A stretch of DNA of 64,000 bases, taken from positions 20,163 to 84,162 of the forward strand of contig CAZPFO010000001.1 of NCBI GenBank assembly GCA_964585935.1. Direction: 5' to 3'. Of the stretch, positions 9,381-22,528 are shown piece after piece (the first letter of the stretch is position 1; each line of letters starts with the position of its first letter). The notes beneath the pieces were generated by a model. The model did not search any database. It was not told where the DNA came from and saw only the letters and a program-made list of their open reading frames with translations. The translations under genes were made by a program, and so were the position numbers. The stretch is from an uncultured Methanosarcinales archaeon. GTDB taxonomy: Archaea > Nanobdellota > Nanobdellia > Woesearchaeales > GW2011-AR4.

Positions 9381-11324
9381 TTATTTTTCATTTTGTTTTC
9401 CCTCCTTAGTTTTTTTAATTCGTTTTTGAACCTGCTTAGATTCAAAACAAGTTTTACATAAAGGTCTGCCTTCCTTGCTAAACTGATAGCAAGGGGTAGA
9501 ACCGCAGGAATGACAATTAAAATGGATTACTTCGGAATCTGGAGAATCTTCAATTGTTTCCTCCTGTACCTCCCCAGAAAGTGTCAAGTCAGTCAGTTTG
9601 TCAGAACTTGACTTGACAGTTTGTAAAGTGTCAGAGAAAGTGTCAGTATACCACTTGCCTATTTCCTCGTCTCTATACTGACAATCTGACACTTCTGACA
9701 CTTTTTTAAATAGTTCTTCTTTAGTTAAATACCCATTTCGTACAACTATCTCTGAAATTGTAAAAAAATCAAGCTCAAATCCCCTATTACAACCATCACT
9801 AGACCTAGTTCTAAAATTACCAAATCCTAGAGAAGTCATTAATTTTGTTACTTTATTGGTGCTTATTTTGTATTCTGTTTCTGAAGCTGAGACAAACTCA
9901 GATTTTAATCCCTGAGTTGAAATAAAAAAACTACCTTTATGTTTACAAAATTCTCCTACCAATACTTTTGCGAGAATTGACTCCCAGGTATTCTCATCGG
10001 CAGACTCATCTCTTATTGTAAAAAGTTTTGAGATAAAATTTCCCATTTCATTTTCTAACTTCACATCAATACATCTAGCCATAGCTATTAGTGGTTTGGC
10101 AATCAACCATTGTCTATTAATTAATTTATATTTATTCTCAACTTTAGTAAGGGCTTTTTGATATAACTTATAACTTAACAAGCCATTAACATAAGCAAAG
10201 TCCCTGCATTTTCCAAAATCAGGGTCGTTTTTGTCTGGCTCAATAGAAGCTCTCTTGTCTTTTGGATTAGCTTTAATCATAAACAACGATAAACTTCTTT
10301 TTTCAAGTGCCCCTTTGAGTGGTTTGATAGAACCAATACGAGTAAATCCGAAAGGATCAAACTCTTCGGTTATGTTTATGTTTTTGTCACTTTGCCTTGG
10401 GACATAATTACCTTTTTCATAGCTTCCATTCAAATATTCAACAAGTTCTGAATCTCCTACATTCTTTTTTTTAGAATCATCAAAAAGTTTTTCAGCCTCT
10501 TCGATAGATAGCGCCGATTTATTGTTGTGCCTATATCTAAAATAATTAGCAGGGGTTGGACATAAAAATTTTCTTCCATTAAACGCAAGATTAGAACTAA
10601 TTTTCATACCTTTACTTTTTGCGCTATCAGAAACGCCTTCATGCTTGATTATTACAGACTTATCAATCAGATCATAGAAGTAAGTACATTGATCCCAAAT
10701 AGCATTTAGATCATACCAACCATCTAGCTCAAATACCATCGATTCTGTATATTTTTTTTTAAATTCTTCATGTACTCTTCTGAATGACATAGCAAAATCT
10801 TTATAACCACCTTCAACAAATGTTTTAATTGAAGAAAGAGACCATCTATTTTCTTTAATTTGCATAACTGAATCAAAAACAAAATCACAGCCTCTAGGCC
10901 TTGAATATTTTGATATTATGCGACCATTTTCTAATATGATAGCATTAACTATTTTTTTTTGCCAAACAGAACCTTTTTCTTTTCTCACTTCAACATTCTC
11001 TAAAATATTTGCGCCATAATATCTATATTTTTTTTCATTGATTGTTATTGATCCAACTGCACTATCGATCCTCTCAGGTGTTTCTTCCTCATTTAAAATG
11101 AAACTACCAATCTTCTTTTCTGATTCAATCTCAATCTGTTTATTTTTTCTTATGATACTCTCTGCCAAGACTTCTTCTTGATTCTGTTTGTATTCCTCAA
11201 AATTGCTCCAGCTTTCTCCGGGATCGAGGATATAGCCCTCTCCAACATCTCTAATAATCCCTTTTTCATCTTTAACATAAGGAAGGCCTGAATCTTTGGT
11301 GGTCATTTCTTTTAACTTACCCAT
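9381..11324 (-). CDS. large MGE protein, putative replication/initiator protein with a C-terminal zinc ribbon
   Basis: 647 aa, the largest non-structural ORF of the element. The C-terminus is HFNCHSCGSTPCYQFSKEGRPLCKTCF (a 4-Cys ribbon). No Walker A and no clear primase motifs were found, so the function is inferred from size and position only. Confidence 0.45.
   Translation of the reverse strand: MGKLKEMTTKDSGLPYVKDEKGIIRDVGEGYILDPGESWSNFEEYKQNQEEVLAESIIRKNKQIEIESEKKIGSFILNEEETPERIDSAVGSITINEKKYRYYGANILENVEVRKEKGSVWQKKIVNAIILENGRIISKYSRPRGCDFVFDSVMQIKENRWSLSSIKTFVEGGYKDFAMSFRRVHEEFKKKYTESMVFELDGWYDLNAIWDQCTYFYDLIDKSVIIKHEGVSDSAKSKGMKISSNLAFNGRKFLCPTPANYFRYRHNNKSALSIEEAEKLFDDSKKKNVGDSELVEYLNGSYEKGNYVPRQSDKNINITEEFDPFGFTRIGSIKPLKGALEKRSLSLFMIKANPKDKRASIEPDKNDPDFGKCRDFAYVNGLLSYKLYQKALTKVENKYKLINRQWLIAKPLIAMARCIDVKLENEMGNFISKLFTIRDESADENTWESILAKVLVGEFCKHKGSFFISTQGLKSEFVSASETEYKISTNKVTKLMTSLGFGNFRTRSSDGCNRGFELDFFTISEIVVRNGYLTKEELFKKVSEVSDCQYRDEEIGKWYTDTFSDTLQTVKSSSDKLTDLTLSGEVQEETIEDSPDSEVIHFNCHSCGSTPCYQFSKEGRPLCKTCFESKQVQKRIKKTKEGKQNEK
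9579..9703. repeat. iteron-like cluster of five copies of AAGTGTCA/TGACACTT plus a 10-bp inverted repeat
   Basis: aagtgtca occurs at 9579, 9626 and 9638, and tgacactt at 9687 and 9696. tgtcagtata (9641-9650) pairs with tatactgaca (9675-9684). All lie inside the 3' part of the 647-aa ORF. Confidence 0.6.
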
Positions 11325-15609: not shown

Positions 15610-16887
15610 TTAATGTGAATACAAAGACGGGCCTGAACTATCAAGTGAGGGATTAGCTAAGTTGATTAGCTTAGTTCTCCCTGTACTGTCAAATACTTTT
15701 TTAAATAATTTAACGGATTTTGGGTCAAACTGGCTACCCGTATCTTGGACTAATACATTCATCGCTTCCTGGGGTGTTTTTCCTTTTCGGTAAGGCCTTT
15801 TACCAATCATTGCCTGAAATGCATCAGTAACTGCAAATAGGTTGACTGTTCTTGGTAGTTCAGATGAATGAATTCCATGAGGATATCCTTCCCCATCATA
15901 TCTTTCATGATGATGCAATACAATTTTCCCTGCATCGCCAGGAAGAGTTGAGCCAATAATTTTATATCCGTTTTCCGGGTGTTGTTTAACCGTTTCATAC
16001 TCTTCATTGTTTAATTTTCCCGGCTTATTCAATATGTCCTCAGGTATTCCAATTTTTCCAATATCATGCATGCTTCCGCCCCACAAGATTGAATCTAACT
16101 CATCCTGACTAAACTTTCTTTTAGAGGCTACATATATCGCCATACCTACAGCTCCTTCTGAATGCACAGCTGTCCAATCGCTTTTTACTGCAAGAGACTT
16201 ATACATCAAGTTAAGCGTAGACTCATGCTGCCCCATATATATAAAATAGGCCGAAGTCTTGAAAGCAATATATTCAAATAACCACCTTTCCTGATCATTG
16301 AGCCTATGTCCGGAATTTCTATTTGCAACAAGCGAGCCTACAATGCGTTTTCCCATGTAAATAGGGGAAGCCATATAATGAGTAGCGGTTATGTCTTTTT
16401 CTGACGGATTTGGAACTAAATCCATACCCCTTTGAGTATACTTATGTTCCGTGATTCCTGTACTCCGCATGACTTCCTTTCCGGCAGCTTTTATCCTTGC
16501 AATAACATCCTTACCGGATCTTTTACTAAAGTCTATGGTTGAACCGCGTATCATCAGGGCATTTTTGCCCAGGGCCCCCTCCTTTTTTTCCATGAGGGTT
16601 ACATCAGCCTTAAATTCATCAGAGATTAAGCCGACTAATTTTTCTGCAGGCGGGGGGATAAGGTGGGTGTTGCTATACTCTGCAAAAAGAGAATAAATTT
16701 TTTTATCAAATTCGTTTGTCCTTCTGTAAATCGTATTTTCTTGTGATAATCTTTTTTTTTCTTCGATTGCAGCGCAATATAATTCTATAATCGGTGTTGT
16801 ATCTTCCTTTCCACTAACAATCTTAGAAAGAGCCTTCTTAAGGTCATCCACATCTCCTGAACTAGCTTCACCCCCTCTATCATTCAT
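15610..16887 (-). CDS. GAF-domain HD-GYP phosphodiesterase (c-di-GMP hydrolase type)
   Basis: 425 aa. The C-terminal HD-GYP domain reads HSEGAVGMA...GGSMHDIGKIGIPEDILNKPGKL...HHHERYDGEGYPHG. A GAF-like sensor region lies N-terminal to it. Confidence 0.85.
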   Translation of the reverse strand: MNDRGGEASSGDVDDLKKALSKIVSGKEDTTPIIELYCAAIEEKKRLSQENTIYRRTNEFDKKIYSLFAEYSNTHLIPPPAEKLVGLISDEFKADVTLMEKKEGALGKNALMIRGSTIDFSKRSGKDVIARIKAAGKEVMRSTGITEHKYTQRGMDLVPNPSEKDITATHYMASPIYMGKRIVGSLVANRNSGHRLNDQERWLFEYIAFKTSAYFIYMGQHESTLNLMYKSLAVKSDWTAVHSEGAVGMAIYVASKRKFSQDELDSILWGGSMHDIGKIGIPEDILNKPGKLNNEEYETVKQHPENGYKIIGSTLPGDAGKIVLHHHERYDGEGYPHGIHSSELPRTVNLFAVTDAFQAMIGKRPYRKGKTPQEAMNVLVQDTGSQFDPKSVKLFKKVFDSTGRTKLINLANPSLDSSGPSLYSH

Positions 16888-17042: not shown

Positions 17043-20000
17043 TCAATAACCCTTCAAACTAATCTGGCCTTTTCTTTTGTTCTCTGGAACCTCTTTTACT
17101 TCTTCACCTACTTGTTTCTTGACAGCCAGGGCAGTCTTCTTTCCGAGAATCTGCTCCAGAACTTCTAATTTTACTTTTTTAACGTCTGCTATATCTTTTA
17201 TTTTGTTTCTGTAAAGCGCTCTTGCCCTTACCCTTCCAACCTGCCCCAGCTTTAATAAAGGCAGCAGCTCTTCCTTGACGCCATACTTCAGCCTGAGCCT
17301 TAATTTGACAATCTCCTTAATCAGGGGCTTGAAGTGCAGTAGTTTACTTAACTCTTCACTGCTGTACAATAGCCAGTCTGTAATGTCTAATTTAGCCCTT
17401 AATTCACCAGGCCTTACTGCATATCCTTCCAATAAAAACTCCTCATCTTTTTCATTAGCCCAGTCCTGGAGCATCATTGCTGTTTTGACAGAATTCAAAA
17501 AGTCTTCGTACTCCTGCTCGTACATCGAAGGCTCTTTTTCCAGCAAAAAACTATTCTCTATGACCAGTTTTTCCTGCACCTTCTCGTATTCCTTGACTTT
17601 TACCCTCAATAAAGGCCTCATCTCCAGAGTATGGGATGTCATCTGTAAAAATGAGAAAGAGCTCATCCTTCTGTCAGAGGCTTCCCTTAAGCAGCATATA
17701 AAGAAATATGCAGTCAAAGGGTCAATATAAAGCTCTGCAACCCTCTTGCCTATTATTGTAGCCTTTACCTTAAAATCATCCATCTCATCCGCGCTTTTAA
17801 AATCTTCTCCTTCTTTTGCAATGAATTCCCACTCTGAAAGAAGGTCAAGCATCTTCATAATGATGTTTTCAAGCTTATCCATATCTGCAAACTGGAATGC
17901 CCAGAAAGTCCTGCTGAAAAATTTTATAATCTCTTTTTTGCTTCTTGTGAAATTCGCCGCAATCAGGCTTAAGATATAAGTCCTTAAAACAGGCTCTACA
18001 GCCAGCTTAGAATAGATCTCTTCTGGATTGCCAAGTACATAGTTCTCGTAAATCCTGTTTTTTTCAGGTTCAGTGGAGGCTATTGCAATTGCCTCGCCTA
18101 CATTATCAAATTTTGGGCGGCCAGCGCGGCCAGCCATCTGCAGGTATTCTAAAACAGGGATGTATGTTAAGCCTCTAGGGCCATATCTTCTTAAGTCTTT
18201 TATGATAGATCTAAAAGCTGGAAGGTCAAGGCCATACGAATTATGCACTATAAATCCATTAGCAACAAACATATGATCATTTTTAGGATTTTGAGGCAAT
18301 TCAACATCATAAACCTCTTCTTCACAATCAACCCTTTTTATTTCCCGTATAACATCCCAAAATATATCTCCTTCAAAATCTGAATCTCTCCATCCTTTCT
18401 TGATTACCCAGCCTAATTGGTTGCTACATAGTGGGCATTTGCGTAATTGAAAAAATTCATCAATTTTCTTCCCTTTTTTGATTATATTTTTAAAAATCCA
18501 TTCTCCGAGTGTATTGAGGCTCCAGAACCACTCTGTATTGCTTCTACTTCCAACTCTTCTTTTTTTTATTAATTCATAATGGTGGTTTAAGCTGCTATCA
18601 TTCTTTTTTGGTTCGCAACTCAAAATCTTTTTTAATTTCCTAGATCCTAATTCCTTATTCTCCCCGAGTAGTTTAATAACTTTTAATTTGATTTGCCCCC
18701 ATTTTTTTTGATCTTTCGTTCTTCCAGAAAAAATATCTTTGTAGATTTTATAGCTGCAATTGTTACATAAAACATAATTTAGGTTAGAACATAATTTAGC
18801 AATTAAATCAATAAGGCAATTCTGTTTTCTTTGAATATTAAAACCAATAAATCTGTAGAAATCGATTATGCTTCTTTTTTGATGTACAGTCAACTCAAAC
18901 TGGGGCAAGGTAAGGTATTCTCTTTCATAAATTTTCATAATGCCTTCTTTTCTTTTTCTTATCCTAGAGACTATCCCAAACCTAAGAAGGTTTTTTTGTA
19001 TTTGTTTGACTAATTTTTCTGAAGTGTTGCTAAAACCAACTCCTAATCTCTTGTCTACGTAACCATCTGTATCAAATAAACCTTTCAATAACCATGAAAT
19101 ATTTTCGAAATCCATTCTCATTAAATTTTCAGAAATATGTTTTTTATCTCTTTTTTCTACCCCGCATCTTACTAAAAATTCTCTAAACCACTTATTTTTG
19201 CCAAAAACCAGGCTGGGTGTGCCATGGTAAGTTTTTGTTTTCCTGCAATTTAATTTCAACCTGTTACATATCTCCTCAACATTTAAAAAAACCTCATTGT
19301 CCATTCCGACTATAGTTGGGCTTCCTTTATACTTAATTTTTCCACAATTTGTTTCTGCTCCAGAGTATCCATCTCCCAACATAAGCCCTATGAAATAAGA
19401 TAGTTTATGGTCAAATTTATAATTCGGAATGGGGATGTTATTATCAAAAATAAAATCCATAATAGAAGGAATTTTTATATGTTTAAGATTCAACCTCCCA
19501 ATTGTTGCTATTTTATCTTTTTGGCTGATATTTTCTGCTGGAACCACCATCTTTCTGTCTTTTCTTTTAATGAGTATTTTATGATTTGGCGTAACTTTTA
19601 TTGAATAACCTGAAACTGAAGAAATTTGAATAAGTTTTGAAGAGTTCATAATCCGATTAACTTTTTTAGCTTTCATAGAAATTAACTTATTTTTGGAAAG
19701 CGCAAAAAGTGGATTAGAACTCTTAAACTTTGAAACTTCAGTTTCGGACATATCATGCCAAATCATAGCATCTTTTGATAAACATAAAGTAGGAGTACAG
19801 CATATCACCTTTATCTTTCCTTCCCTGAAATTGTCTTCAATCAACGCTCTCTGTTTCTGGGTGAGGCCTGCATGATGAAAAGAAATCCCTTTCTTGATGC
19901 AATAAGCCAGCCTTGTACACTGTTTTGTCGGCTTCGATAATGCTTTTAAAGCCTCTTCGCTTAAGTTGTTTAAAGCCAAGCTTTCTGTTTTGATCTTTTT

Positions 20001-20141
20001 TGAGATGTCTTCTGCAGTTTTTTCTGCACTTCTCTTAGTGTTGACAAATACTAAAGCCTGCTTGTTGAGCTTAATGGTGTCGAGAACTATATTGAGGACA
20101 TCATTGTCAGTTTCGTGAGGGATTTTTTTAATAGTGGGCAT
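17043..20141 (-). CDS. hel308: Hel308/Ski2-type helicase, C-terminal part only (RecA2-WH-ratchet-HhH), interrupted by an intein
   Basis: Motifs present are IV ALVFVNTKRSAE, IVa FHHAGL, V CTPTL[intein]SYGLDLPA and VI QMAGRAGRP. The C-terminal HhH is LGQVGRVRARALY. There are no Walker A or DEAH motifs and no upstream coding space. The likely start is MPTIKK at 20141, although the ORF track extends to 20210. Confidence 0.8.
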   Translation of the reverse strand: MPTIKKIPHETDNDVLNIVLDTIKLNKQALVFVNTKRSAEKTAEDISKKIKTESLALNNLSEEALKALSKPTKQCTRLAYCIKKGISFHHAGLTQKQRALIEDNFREGKIKVICCTPTLCLSKDAMIWHDMSETEVSKFKSSNPLFALSKNKLISMKAKKVNRIMNSSKLIQISSVSGYSIKVTPNHKILIKRKDRKMVVPAENISQKDKIATIGRLNLKHIKIPSIMDFIFDNNIPIPNYKFDHKLSYFIGLMLGDGYSGAETNCGKIKYKGSPTIVGMDNEVFLNVEEICNRLKLNCRKTKTYHGTPSLVFGKNKWFREFLVRCGVEKRDKKHISENLMRMDFENISWLLKGLFDTDGYVDKRLGVGFSNTSEKLVKQIQKNLLRFGIVSRIRKRKEGIMKIYEREYLTLPQFELTVHQKRSIIDFYRFIGFNIQRKQNCLIDLIAKLCSNLNYVLCNNCSYKIYKDIFSGRTKDQKKWGQIKLKVIKLLGENKELGSRKLKKILSCEPKKNDSSLNHHYELIKKRRVGSRSNTEWFWSLNTLGEWIFKNIIKKGKKIDEFFQLRKCPLCSNQLGWVIKKGWRDSDFEGDIFWDVIREIKRVDCEEEVYDVELPQNPKNDHMFVANGFIVHNSYGLDLPAFRSIIKDLRRYGPRGLTYIPVLEYLQMAGRAGRPKFDNVGEAIAIASTEPEKNRIYENYVLGNPEEIYSKLAVEPVLRTYILSLIAANFTRSKKEIIKFFSRTFWAFQFADMDKLENIIMKMLDLLSEWEFIAKEGEDFKSADEMDDFKVKATIIGKRVAELYIDPLTAYFFICCLREASDRRMSSFSFLQMTSHTLEMRPLLRVKVKEYEKVQEKLVIENSFLLEKEPSMYEQEYEDFLNSVKTAMMLQDWANEKDEEFLLEGYAVRPGELRAKLDITDWLLYSSEELSKLLHFKPLIKEIVKLRLRLKYGVKEELLPLLKLGQVGRVRARALYRNKIKDIADVKKVKLEVLEQILGKKTALAVKKQVGEEVKEVPENKRKGQISLKGY
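18240..19784 (-). mobile_element. 515-aa intein with a LAGLIDADG homing endonuclease, inserted in helicase motif V
   Basis: The N-terminal splice junction is TPTL|CLSKD and the C-terminal junction is FIVHN|SYG. The LAGLIDADG blocks are YFIGLMLGDGY and LLKGLFDTDGYV. There are extra Cys pairs (CNNCSYK, CPLCSNQ). Confidence 0.85.
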
Positions 20142-20245
20142 TTTAAAAGGGAGATTTCCGGGGTTTATTAAATTTTTTAAAGATATGATGAAATAATAAC
20201 AAAAATCCAATAAATATATAAATAACTTTAATAAAAAATATATCC

Positions 20246-20581
20246 ATGTCCCCTGGAGTCCATCATATCCATAAGAGGCACAGAAAACACAAGAAACTGG
20301 AAAAATTCCCTCATCCTAACAGGTGGATTGCTTTTCTTGATGGGTTTTTGTTGGCTATAGCCGTTATTGGACCCTTATCAAATATCCCGCAAATAGCAAA
20401 AATATTTTACTTAAAGAACTCGTTAGGCGTTTCTATAGTTACTTTCTCTCTTCTTGCGCTATTTAACATACCATGGATAGTTTATGGCATTGTTCATAAA
20501 GAAAAGCCAATTGTAATTGCCTATATATTATGGCTTATCACTAATTCTATTGTAGTAATTGGTATTCTGATTTATCCATAA
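20246..20581 (+). CDS. 3-TM PQ-loop / SemiSWEET-like membrane protein
   Basis: 111 aa with three hydrophobic helices. A PQ motif (NIPQIAKIF) sits in the first helix. Confidence 0.5.
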   Translation: MSPGVHHIHKRHRKHKKLEKFPHPNRWIAFLDGFLLAIAVIGPLSNIPQIAKIFYLKNSLGVSIVTFSLLALFNIPWIVYGIVHKEKPIVIAYILWLITNSIVVIGILIYP

Positions 20582-20620
20582 GAAAGATTCTCAATTAAAA
20601 AATTTGAATTCAAAAATAAA

Positions 20621-22528
20621 TCAGACAACCTTAACATCCCACTCATAGCCTATACTCTTCTCGCCATCAGAAACAGTGACCTTGACCTTTTTATCCCCTC
20701 TTGAAGTGAATGTGCGTTCCATTACAGCTGTTGCCTCGTATTTCTCAAGCCTGCTAAAAACCCATTCATAAGTTAACTCATCGCCATCCTTATCCAAGGC
20801 ATTAATCCAGAAAACAATTGGCTTATTAACATCAGCAATTGTATCTTTGCTTACTTCAATTGTTTCAGGAGGCCTGTTTTTGTCAAGAACAGTTATAGTT
20901 GAGGTTTCACTAACATTGTTCTTCCCATCATCTGCCATAAAGTTGAGAAGTATATCCATTTTACTTTCGTATTTGGAGACGAAATCAAAATCAGGCTTCC
21001 ATGTAAAGATATTTTCCTCTAAAAAAGCCCCTTCAGGAGGATCAATAACGGAAAAGGTTATTTCGTCATTATCCGGGTCAGATGCCTTTAAATATATCAT
21101 TAAAGTTTCATCCTCATTAACTTCAAAATTGCCTATTTTGCTAAAGATGGGCTTTCTGTTTGACTTTTTAACAATTATCTTGACAAATTTATGAGAAGAA
21201 TGGTAGCTGTCTGTGGCAGTAACCTTAACATAATGCTCGCCGGCATCGTCATAGGTTGTTTTATGGGTGTCTTTGTTCATCCACCCTGAATAGGAGAAGC
21301 TTAGAAGATCGTTATCAGGATCATCATATTTTGGCTGTATCTTTACTATCTCACCTTCATTAACTACTATATCCTCAAAATCTTCCATGGTAAAGGGCCT
21401 GTTGCTATCCTGTACCACAACCTTGATATCCTTTTTGATTTCTCCGCCTTTAGTTACAGCAATAAATGTTACTGGGAAGCTTTTTACAAGCAAACGAAAC
21501 TTATCAAGAGCATAATCGAAAACGCTTTCTTTTTGCACTGCGTTATAATCAGGTTTCCATTCAAAAACATTGTCTTTGAAAGAAAACCCTTCCGGCAGGC
21601 CAGTAGCGGAAAATGATATTTTATCATTATCGGGGTCATTAGCCTTTAGTTCTATTCTTAAATTTTCATTTTCCCTCACAAAATAAAGGCTCTTGATGTC
21701 AAATTTAGAGGGCCTGTCTTCATTTTCAATAATCACGTCAATTTCTTCTGTGCCTGAAAAACCCCTGCCTTCAACAGTTAAGGTAACTGTGTACTTGCCC
21801 GCGCTATCATAATCTGTCAGCCAATAATTGTCATTCCCTATTGGTTCTGAGATATCATAGCTTAAGCCGTATTTCTTTAAATCTGGCAGGTTCAATTTTA
21901 CAACTCCTGTCTCTTTGGTTGTGACATCCTCTATTGCAGCAAGAATATCTTTTATATCTACATTATTAACCTTAAGCTGCCATTTATTGCTTACATTGTT
22001 TATGCCGTCAGAAATTACAACTTCAACGTCATACTTCCCGCTTTGGTCATAGTCAGATGAAAATTCAAATTTATTGCCTTCAGAAACCTTCTTGCCATTT
22101 AAAAACCATGAATATGTCAGGGGGTCTTTGTTTAAGTCGCTTGCCTGGATATCAAATTTTAATGTTTTTCCCTCGTCAATCTCAATAGCCTTATCTGGCG
22201 GGTTAAAGGTTTCTATTGATGGCTTTTCTTCTTTTTTAATCACCAGGATTATAATCTCTTCTGAAGTGGATAATTCACCGTCGCTTACAGTTATAATAAC
22301 TGTATATTTTCCTGCGTCACCATAAGCTGTCTGCCACTCACCATCTTCATCTAATGGGTCTGTGTAGGCATAAGTCAATTTCTGGTCATCAGGATCATTA
22401 GCCTCTGCCTGCAAGCTTACCAGATCTGTCTCTTCATATTCGAAAATGGTTATAGAATTAACAAAATAGGCTGATAAAAGCAAAACTAAAACAAATGTGA
22501 ATATTACTCTCTTCAATTCAACCCCCAC
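20621..22528 (-). CDS. secreted surface protein made of PKD / cadherin-like Ig repeats
   Basis: 635 aa with a GTG start and a signal-like N-terminus. The ~90-aa repeats contain DPD(D/N)D..L(T/S)(Y/F)S...W.P.Y..AG.Y.V.V.VSDG. Confidence 0.7.
   Translation of the reverse strand: MGVELKRVIFTFVLVLLLSAYFVNSITIFEYEETDLVSLQAEANDPDDQKLTYAYTDPLDEDGEWQTAYGDAGKYTVIITVSDGELSTSEEIIILVIKKEEKPSIETFNPPDKAIEIDEGKTLKFDIQASDLNKDPLTYSWFLNGKKVSEGNKFEFSSDYDQSGKYDVEVVISDGINNVSNKWQLKVNNVDIKDILAAIEDVTTKETGVVKLNLPDLKKYGLSYDISEPIGNDNYWLTDYDSAGKYTVTLTVEGRGFSGTEEIDVIIENEDRPSKFDIKSLYFVRENENLRIELKANDPDNDKISFSATGLPEGFSFKDNVFEWKPDYNAVQKESVFDYALDKFRLLVKSFPVTFIAVTKGGEIKKDIKVVVQDSNRPFTMEDFEDIVVNEGEIVKIQPKYDDPDNDLLSFSYSGWMNKDTHKTTYDDAGEHYVKVTATDSYHSSHKFVKIIVKKSNRKPIFSKIGNFEVNEDETLMIYLKASDPDNDEITFSVIDPPEGAFLEENIFTWKPDFDFVSKYESKMDILLNFMADDGKNNVSETSTITVLDKNRPPETIEVSKDTIADVNKPIVFWINALDKDGDELTYEWVFSRLEKYEATAVMERTFTSRGDKKVKVTVSDGEKSIGYEWDVKVV

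What the first reader, a model, noticed from the sequence alone, without database searches (positions are those of the whole stretch)
17043..20245. Hel308 gene encodes only the RecA2-to-HhH part; the RecA1 (Walker A/DEAH) half is not adjacent
The ORF begins just before motif IV (ALVFVNTKRSAE). Only 35 nt of non-coding sequence (or ~100 nt, if the preferred ATG at 20141 is the start) separate it from a divergent membrane-protein gene. No Walker A or DEAH-containing ORF exists anywhere in the window. Either the helicase is a split gene with its N-terminal half encoded elsewhere, as is known for several genes in Nanoarchaeum equitans, or it is a truncated relic that still maintains an intact intein and intact motifs IV-VI.
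Basis: partly seen in the sequence, partly recalled or inferred. Interest (0 to 1): 0.6.

Follow-up and report, generated by a model that had tools for sequence, protein, structure and literature searches.

The report
C-terminal subunit of split Hel308 helicase
This gene is the conserved back half of the DNA-repair helicase Hel308, which a large group of tiny (Woesearchaeota-type DPANN) archaea encode as two separate, unlinked genes; it is a working part of a two-piece enzyme, not a broken remnant, although the front half could not be located in this particular genome.

Summary
Observation confirmed. The ORF at 17043-20141(-), 1032 aa with start ATG 20141, encodes Hel308 from just before motif IV to the HhH domain. 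A 515-aa LAGLIDADG intein interrupts motif V. No RecA1 homologue lies in the window (tblastn best E 2.2).

It is not a relic or an assembly artefact.
- Conservation: 97 of 120 intein-bearing relatives and all 120 best intein-less relatives (514-548 aa, up to 83% identical) start at the same place.
- Selection: extein dN/dS against an 82%-identical relative is about 0.04-0.08.
- Promoter: a TATA-like box sits about 30 nt before the ATG, here and in 31 of 35 relatives.
- Assembly: independent contigs span the 20.2-kb junction.

The partner exists. Hundreds of stand-alone ~220-aa RecA1 proteins from the same clade all stop right after WRPVxLxKGVYxxGxIEF. They have their own TATA box and dN/dS of 0.06-0.14.

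The two halves abut without loss (P. furiosus Hjm residue 215, then about 212-229). They occur on different contigs of seven assemblies and are never adjacent.

The source metagenome holds at least three such genes at matching depth.

Verdict: a new member of the known kind "split informational genes of DPANN". No publication describing it was found. Interest is moderate.

The parts
17043..20141 (-). Gene for the C-terminal subunit of split Hel308. The precursor is 1032 aa and the stop codon is at 17043-17045.
   Evidence: the ORF, its domain matches, and a start conserved in 97 split-type relatives
20164..20181 (-). A/T-rich TATA-like box (TTTAAAAAATTTAATAAA) at -40 to -23 before ATG 20141. 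This is the likely own promoter of a leaderless or short-leader mRNA.
   Evidence: a TATA-like hexamer starts at -32 to -27 in 31 of 35 C-half loci and 38 of 45 N-half loci
19785..20141 (-). N-extein, aa 1-119. It holds the first helix and strand of the retained RecA2 part, motif IV (ALVFVNTKRSAE, 20022-20057), and the first half of motif V (CCTPTL).
   Evidence: it aligns to P. furiosus Hjm (2ZJ2) from residue 229
18240..19784 (-). 515-aa intein with a LAGLIDADG homing-endonuclease domain, inserted in helicase motif V (Cys1 ... His-Asn, +1 Ser).
   Evidence: After excision the product is 517 aa, the same length as the closest intein-less relatives.
17046..18239 (-). C-extein, aa 635-1032. It holds the rest of motif V (SYGLDLPA), motif VI (QMAGRAGRP, 18114-18140), the winged helix, ratchet domain 4 (17280-17654) and the HhH domain (17115-17261).

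Best explanation
The gene encodes the larger, C-terminal subunit of a two-gene Hel308 (Hjm) helicase.

In the Woesearchaeota-type lineage an ancestral single hel308 gene was cut about 15 residues after the WRPVPL linker. This produced two genes:
- A ~220-aa gene for RecA1 (motifs Q, I, Ia, II DEIH, III) plus a short beta-hairpin.
- A ~517-aa gene for the rest of RecA2 (motifs IV-VI), the winged helix, the ratchet domain and the HhH domain.

Each gene has its own promoter, and the two lie far apart.

In this genome the C-half also carries a mobile LAGLIDADG intein in motif V. The intein must splice itself out in cis and thereby restore ...CCTPTL-SYGLDLPAF....

Inferred, not shown: the spliced 517-aa protein then binds the separately made RecA1 subunit non-covalently. 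The ATP site is rebuilt at the RecA1/RecA2 interface, with Walker A and DEIH from one chain and motif VI arginines from the other. The pair acts as an ordinary 3'-5' DNA-repair and fork-restart helicase.
For: Conservation of the cut:
- 97 of the 120 best intein-bearing hits lack RecA1 and begin 14-29 aa before KQALVF.
- All 120 best hits to the spliced extein are 514-548 aa split forms, 64-83% identical.

Selection:
- dN/dS of the extein is 0.044 (whole gene 0.076) against L004. dS is saturated.
- N-halves give 0.06-0.14, including unsaturated pairs.

The partner:
- 109 of the 120 best hits to an N-terminal query are 205-232-aa proteins that all end after ...G.IEF.
- 44 of 44 such loci have a stop codon there.
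- The neighbouring genes are unrelated.

Complementarity:
- The N-half ends at Hjm residue 215.
- C-half residue 18 aligns to Hjm 229, so nothing is missing between them.

Co-occurrence:
- Seven assemblies carry both halves on different contigs.
- None of 80 loci has the other half within 10 kb.
- N and C pairwise identities correlate, r 0.82, exact Mantel p 0.015.

Own promoters:
- There is a sharp TATA peak at -32 to -27 for both gene sets and for the window.

Not an artefact:
- Logan contigs at 100% identity span 19794-20495 and 20056-21325 with no joints.
- An NCBI metagenome contig also spans the junction.
- The same PQ-loop and PKD neighbours occur in three JGI samples.

Source sample:
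- At least three N-half-type genes are present at 4.8-6.4x, against 5.5-7.8x for the window.
- One of them reads ...EFG-TGA at the canonical end.
Against: - Read depth cannot assign any of the three or more N-half genes in the source metagenome to this genome.
- Physical association, splicing and activity are all inferred. No RNA run holds the stretch.
- dS is saturated in the C-half comparison.
- Monophyly of the split forms has weak branch support, 0.17. The full-length outgroups available were only intein-bearing ones.
Confidence: 0.82

Rival explanations
1. The C-half works on its own, or with some other ATPase partner. It would be a neofunctionalised 'helicase-related' DNA-binding protein rather than part of a reconstituted Hel308.
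For: The partner in this genome was not found. The AF2 model of an isolated C-half still folds the WH, ratchet and HhH domains confidently. NCBI names such proteins only 'helicase-related protein'.
Against: Motifs IV, V and VI, including the arginine finger GRAGRP, are invariant across the family. They only make sense next to a RecA1 ATP site. The matching RecA1 genes keep motifs I-III invariant. They co-occur in 7 of 7 assemblies in which both types were retrieved, and they co-vary. In the isolated model the motif V-VI segment has pLDDT below 50.
Confidence: 0.08
2. The two halves are joined after transcription or translation, by RNA trans-splicing or split-intein protein trans-splicing as in N. 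equitans PolB, to give one polypeptide.
For: N. equitans joins split tRNA halves and splices its split PolB with a split intein (general knowledge). This gene family also tolerates inteins.
Against: The N-half is only ~220 aa and is helicase sequence to its last residue. The C-half starts with helicase sequence. There is therefore no room for intein halves at the cut. The only intein is a contiguous cis-splicing one 119 aa downstream, and it is absent from most relatives.
Confidence: 0.03
3. It is a truncated, decaying relic of hel308 whose function is lost or supplied by a full-length copy elsewhere.
For: The RecA1 half is missing from the window. The NCBIfam score is below the cutoff.
Against: The reading frame is intact over 1032 codons. 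dN/dS is about 0.04-0.08. The identical architecture occurs in more than 200 clusters down to 45% identity. The promoter box is conserved.
Confidence: 0.03
4. It is an assembly artefact: the contig is chimeric at about 20.2 kb and the RecA1 part was lost there.
For: The source is a metagenome-assembled genome sequenced at low depth (about 6x).
Against: Three assemblers agree across the junction with no loose ends or joints. Relatives from other samples show the same start and the same neighbours.
Confidence: 0.01

Closest known systems
Full-length archaeal Hel308/Hjm (P. furiosus 2ZJ2, A. fulgidus 2P6R, S. solfataricus 2VA8)
   Same: The C-half aligns to Hjm 229-713 (E 2e-92) and the partner family aligns to Hjm 16-215 (E 2.5e-65). 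Together they cover all five domains and motifs Q to VI.
   Different: The protein is made from two unlinked genes cut just after the RecA1-RecA2 linker. Here motif V is also interrupted by an intein.
Split protein genes of Nanoarchaeota (N. equitans and Nst1: reverse gyrase, 'large helicase-related protein' NEQ003/NEQ409, RNA polymerase B, and others; PMC3655853 Table 1)
   Same: An informational enzyme of a genome-reduced DPANN archaeon is encoded as two separated ORFs that together equal the single polypeptide of other archaea. One precedent is itself an SF2 helicase.
   Different: It is a different helicase family (Hel308 rather than Lhr) in a different lineage (Woesearchaeota-type rather than Nanoarchaeum). 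The cut site is conserved across a very large radiation rather than a few species. No paper describing it was found.
Intein-containing SF2 helicases (for example aLhr2 of P. horikoshii with an intein in RecA2, PMC8301817; intein-bearing Hel308 of Asgard archaea)
   Same: A LAGLIDADG intein is inserted in a conserved RecA2 motif. Asgard Hel308 carries an intein at the same site, 54-55% identical.
   Different: In those proteins the host helicase is one chain. Here the host is already a half-protein, and the intein is sporadic among close relatives.

Membership tests
Hel308/Hjm helicase (NCBIfam NF040935, PRK02362) | RecA1 domain with motifs Q, I (GKT), II (DExH) and III in the same polypeptide | tested here: not met
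   The profile match starts at position 342 of 739 and the score of 421 is below the cutoff of 887. There is no N-half homologue in the window.
Hel308/Hjm helicase (NCBIfam NF040935, PRK02362) | RecA2 with motifs IV, V and VI | tested here: met
   ALVFVNTKRSAE; TPTL|intein|SYGLDLPA; QMAGRAGRP. These align to Hjm 229-400.
Hel308/Hjm helicase (NCBIfam NF040935, PRK02362) | Winged helix, ratchet domain 4 and C-terminal HhH domain | tested here: met
   PF21280 at E 1.9e-30. PF20470 and PF14520 match weakly. The alignment to 2ZJ2 runs to residue 713.
Split (two-gene) protein of DPANN archaea | Two ORFs that correspond to adjoining, non-overlapping parts of the one-chain orthologue | tested here: met
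   The N-half family ends at Hjm 215. C-half residue 18 aligns to Hjm 229, so residue 1 falls near 212.
Split (two-gene) protein of DPANN archaea | Both ORFs present in the same genome | tested here: inconclusive
   Met in seven related assemblies. The source metagenome holds N-half genes at matching depth, but they cannot be assigned.
Split (two-gene) protein of DPANN archaea | Both ORFs kept under purifying selection and separately expressed | tested here: met
   omega is 0.04-0.08 for the C-half and 0.06-0.14 for the N-half. Both have a TATA-like box at about -30. Expression itself was not tested; no RNA run was found.
Split (two-gene) protein of DPANN archaea | The two chains associate and restore activity | not testable with these tools
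   This needs biochemistry or a multimer structure prediction. Only single chains could be folded.
Split-intein trans-spliced protein (N. equitans PolB type) | Intein N-fragment at the end of the first ORF and intein C-fragment at the start of the second | tested here: not met
   The N-half is helicase to its last residue. The C-half starts with helicase sequence. The only intein is contiguous and internal.

The most novel reading that the evidence does not exclude
The cut does not lie between the two RecA domains but just inside RecA2. The small subunit ends in a beta-hairpin (residues 210-219 of the model). That hairpin may have to insert into the incomplete RecA2 of the large subunit. In the isolated C-half model the motif V-VI segment is not predicted with confidence.

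The helicase would then assemble by strand complementation into an obligate heterodimer. The supply of the small ATPase subunit could serve as a regulatory switch, or the subunit could be shared with other partners.
Probability: 0.15. Interest if true: 0.6.

Novelty: new member of a known kind. Interest (0 to 1): 0.42.

Why it matters
- Annotation: automatic annotation names the two pieces 'helicase-related protein', 'LAGLIDADG family homing endonuclease' or 'DEAD/DEAH box helicase'. Gene-content surveys of DPANN archaea can therefore miscount Hel308 as absent or broken.
- Biochemistry: a clade-wide, naturally split SF2 helicase whose ATP site forms between two chains is a ready-made system. 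It could be used to study how RecA1 and RecA2 communicate and how such enzymes tolerate fission.
- Evolution: it adds a well-sampled case, with hundreds of genomes and one conserved cut site, to the short list of split informational genes used to discuss genome reduction in DPANN.

Tried and rejected
- The look-up of encoding contigs with the C-half (both starts) found no record. The window's own MAG appears to be withheld. Only a metagenome contig (VAPC01) and a Logan contig of SRR6439359 carry the neighbouring PQ-loop gene.
- Matching contig lengths to pair halves (P0026 with P0149, then P0155) led to other samples.
- The Guaymas MAG locus L075 is not in the source runs.
- Laying the source runs on N-half genes of relatives at 80% likeness gave only fragments of at least three different N-half genes. 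Their depths (4.8-6.4x) are too close to each other and to the window (5.5-7.8x) to bin.
- No RNA run was found.
- The sigma-70 promoter scan is irrelevant for archaea.
- Five literature searches found no description of a split Hel308.
- Earlier notes of this scan on the same genome contain no N-half.
Full report
WHAT IS THERE

The minus-strand ORF 17043..20210 is best read from ATG 20141. All relatives begin there (MPTIKKIPHETDNDVLNIVLDT... against MSATKNIPHDSDNDVLNIALDT... in the 82%-identical P0002). The public gene call (P0001, 1055 aa, TTG 20210) is probably 23 codons too long.

Pfam and NCBIfam match only the back part of Hel308:
- PRK02362 profile positions 342-714 of 739, score 421 against a cutoff of 887.
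- Helicase_C.
- Archaeal helicase domain 4, E 1.9e-30.
- HhH.
- An intein with a LAGLIDADG domain.

The intein is aa 120-634 (window 18240-19784). It lies inside motif V as CCTPTL|CLSKD...FIVHN|SYGLDLPAF.

No RecA1 homologue is in the window. Three ORFs carry Walker A motifs but are unrelated, and tblastn with a stand-alone N-half gives nothing better than E 2.2. Earlier notes of this scan place the genome among Woesearchaeota-type DPANN archaea.

NOT A RELIC

A search with the precursor found 306 relatives. Of the 120 listed, 97 lack RecA1 and are about 1030 aa, with identity from 82% down to about 45%. Each begins 14-29 residues before the KQALVF strand. The 23 full-length intein-bearing proteins are from Asgard archaea, plus one from Nanoarchaeia.

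A search with the spliced extein (517 aa) returned 120 of 120 split forms of 514-548 aa, 64-83% identical. The closest are exactly 517 aa. This also confirms the intein boundaries.

Against the P0002 gene (L004), Nei-Gojobori dN/dS values are as follows (dS is saturated, so these are upper-level estimates only):

| Region | dN/dS |
|---|---|
| Whole gene | 0.076 |
| Extein | 0.044 |
| Intein | 0.11 |

NOT AN ARTEFACT

Three JGI contigs carrying P0002 show the same divergent 111-aa PQ-loop gene and the same PKD-repeat surface protein upstream.

The sequencing runs that hold the window (X1-X3, hydrothermal vent metagenome) give Logan contigs at 100% identity. These contigs cross the gene start (19794-20495 and 20056-21325) with no joints or loose ends. 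An NCBI metagenome contig (VAPC010639144.1) crosses it too.

THE PARTNER FAMILY

The first 226 residues of the full-length relative P0092 were used as a query, so that the length filter admitted only short proteins. This gave 3843 hits.
- Of the 120 listed, 109 are 205-232 aa, with median pairwise identity 68%.
- All end within a few residues of ...WRPVxLxKGVYxxGxIEF.
- They sit inside long contigs next to unrelated genes such as DoxX and a convergent SRP54.
- In 44 of 44 such loci from reference genomes the frame closes with a stop at that point.
- Their dN/dS is 0.06-0.14, including unsaturated pairs with dS of 0.11 and 0.5.
- Motifs I, II (DEIH) and III are invariant.

THE TWO HALVES FIT

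The N-half aligns to P. furiosus Hjm (2ZJ2) residues 16-215. The C-half aligns from its residue 18 to Hjm 229 and on to residue 713. The cut is clean and nothing is lost.

An AF2 model of the N-half has pLDDT 90.7. It shows a RecA fold followed by the WRPV linker and a terminal beta-hairpin at residues 210-219.

A model of an isolated intein-less C-half (P0241, 83% identical to the window's spliced product) has pLDDT 75. It is confident except in the motif V-VI segment, residues 122-167, where pLDDT is below 50. This hints, but no more, that RecA2 is incomplete without the hairpin.

CO-OCCURRENCE

The tool drew one pattern from each half, DE[IV]HLLND and [EQ]LY[IL]DP[LY]TA. It kept 80 loci, 45 with an N-half and 35 with a C-half.

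Seven assemblies carry both halves, always on different contigs: JACPMP01, CAZJBR01, CAZFEZ01, CAYIKX01, DASRUK01, PCYE01 and CAIMOB01. No locus has the other half within its flanks of up to 10 kb.

Across these seven genomes the pairwise identities of the N-halves and C-halves correlate, r 0.82, exact Mantel p 0.015. This is as expected for co-inherited subunits.

Most reference C-halves lack the intein.

OWN PROMOTERS

A TATA-like hexamer starts at -32 to -27 before the ATG in 31 of 35 C-half loci and 38 of 45 N-half loci, as a sharp peak. The window has TTTAATAAA at -31 to -23. This is the geometry of archaeal leaderless or short-leader genes, which rests on established knowledge. The two genes therefore look independently transcribed.

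HISTORY OF THE INTEIN

In a FastTree of the C-extein, all 207 split forms fall in one clade with no full-length protein inside. Support is weak (0.17) and the outgroups are limited.

The intein state changes at least nine times. Within the window's well-supported 13-member clade, only the window and P0002 carry the intein.

The window's intein is 54-55% identical to inteins at the same site in Asgard Hel308, while the exteins are only 31-41% identical. The fission is therefore old and fixed, and the intein is a later, mobile passenger.

THIS GENOME'S OWN N-HALF

The window's MAG is not exposed by the look-up tools.

The source runs were laid on N-half genes of relatives at 80% likeness. This shows at least three different N-half-type genes at 4.8-6.4x, against 5.5-7.8x for the window.

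One of them lies on 1.1-1.4-kb contigs at 6.3-6.4x in all three runs. It reads ...EF-GGA-TGA at the canonical end, which is a stop exactly where the family stops.

Depth alone cannot say which of these belongs to this genome.

COMPARISON WITH WHAT IS KNOWN

Split protein genes are a known trait of Nanoarchaeota. Examples are reverse gyrase, the 'large helicase-related protein' NEQ003/409 and RNA polymerase B (PMC3655853, Table 1). Reviews mention split Dph2 in Woesearchaeota (PMC6349945).

A survey of archaeal Ski2-like helicases (PMC10946056) and one of archaeal fusion/fission families (PMC11237513) do not mention a split Hel308 in the passages searched. Five full-text searches found no paper that does.

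Within this scan, an earlier follow-up (e1-982222) reached the same conclusion from the N-half side. I treated it as a lead and re-derived the evidence independently.

VERDICT

The gene is the C-terminal subunit of a two-gene Hel308, here carrying a cis-splicing intein. Association and activity of the two chains are inferred, not shown. It is a new member of a known kind and of moderate interest.

Noticed in passing
window 18240-19784: The motif-V intein is sporadic. Only 2 of the 13 closest relatives carry it, and its state changes at least 9 times in the tree. It is 54-55% identical to inteins at the same site in Asgard Hel308, although the exteins are only 31-41% identical. This suggests homing across phyla. 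Intein dN/dS is 0.11.
   Followed up: partly
window 20142-20210: The public gene call for this ORF (P0001, 1055 aa) starts at TTG 20210. The conserved start is ATG 20141, with a TATA-like box at -31, so the deposited protein is probably 23 residues too long.
   Followed up: yes
L008, L013, L014, L018, L019, L026, L030, L031 and others: Many 'binchicken' MAGs titled 'uncultured Methanosarcinales archaeon' carry Woesearchaeota-type split Hel308 halves, 60-70% identical to the window's. Their taxon label looks wrong.
   Followed up: no
protein P0083: One split C-half (1504 aa) carries a second intein inside motif VI (QM|CLPYN...VHN|CGRAGRP) in addition to the motif-V intein.
   Followed up: no
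L002, L089, L090 around 10001-11112: In one subgroup the N-half gene is always followed by a DoxX-family membrane gene and a convergent SRP54/prefoldin/ScpA block. In L089 and L090 it is preceded by a second 219-aa ORF of unknown kind.
   Followed up: no
model md93a86cdecb4, residues 122-167: In the AF2 model of an isolated intein-less C-half, the segment from motif V to motif VI has pLDDT below 50 and is drawn as helices. The rest of the protein is confident. The cause may be the shallow alignment or the missing N-half hairpin.
   Followed up: no
runs X1-X3: The source hydrothermal-vent metagenome contains at least three distinct N-half-type genes at similar low depth (about 5-6x). Several Woesearchaeota-type organisms with split Hel308 therefore coexist there.
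   Followed up: partly
window 15610-16887 and 20621-22528: The neighbours are a 425-aa protein with an HD-GYP-like C-terminal pattern (HDIGK...HHERYDGEGYP) and a 635-aa secreted protein of repeated PKD/cadherin-like modules. The latter is syntenic in the 82%-identical relative.
   Followed up: no
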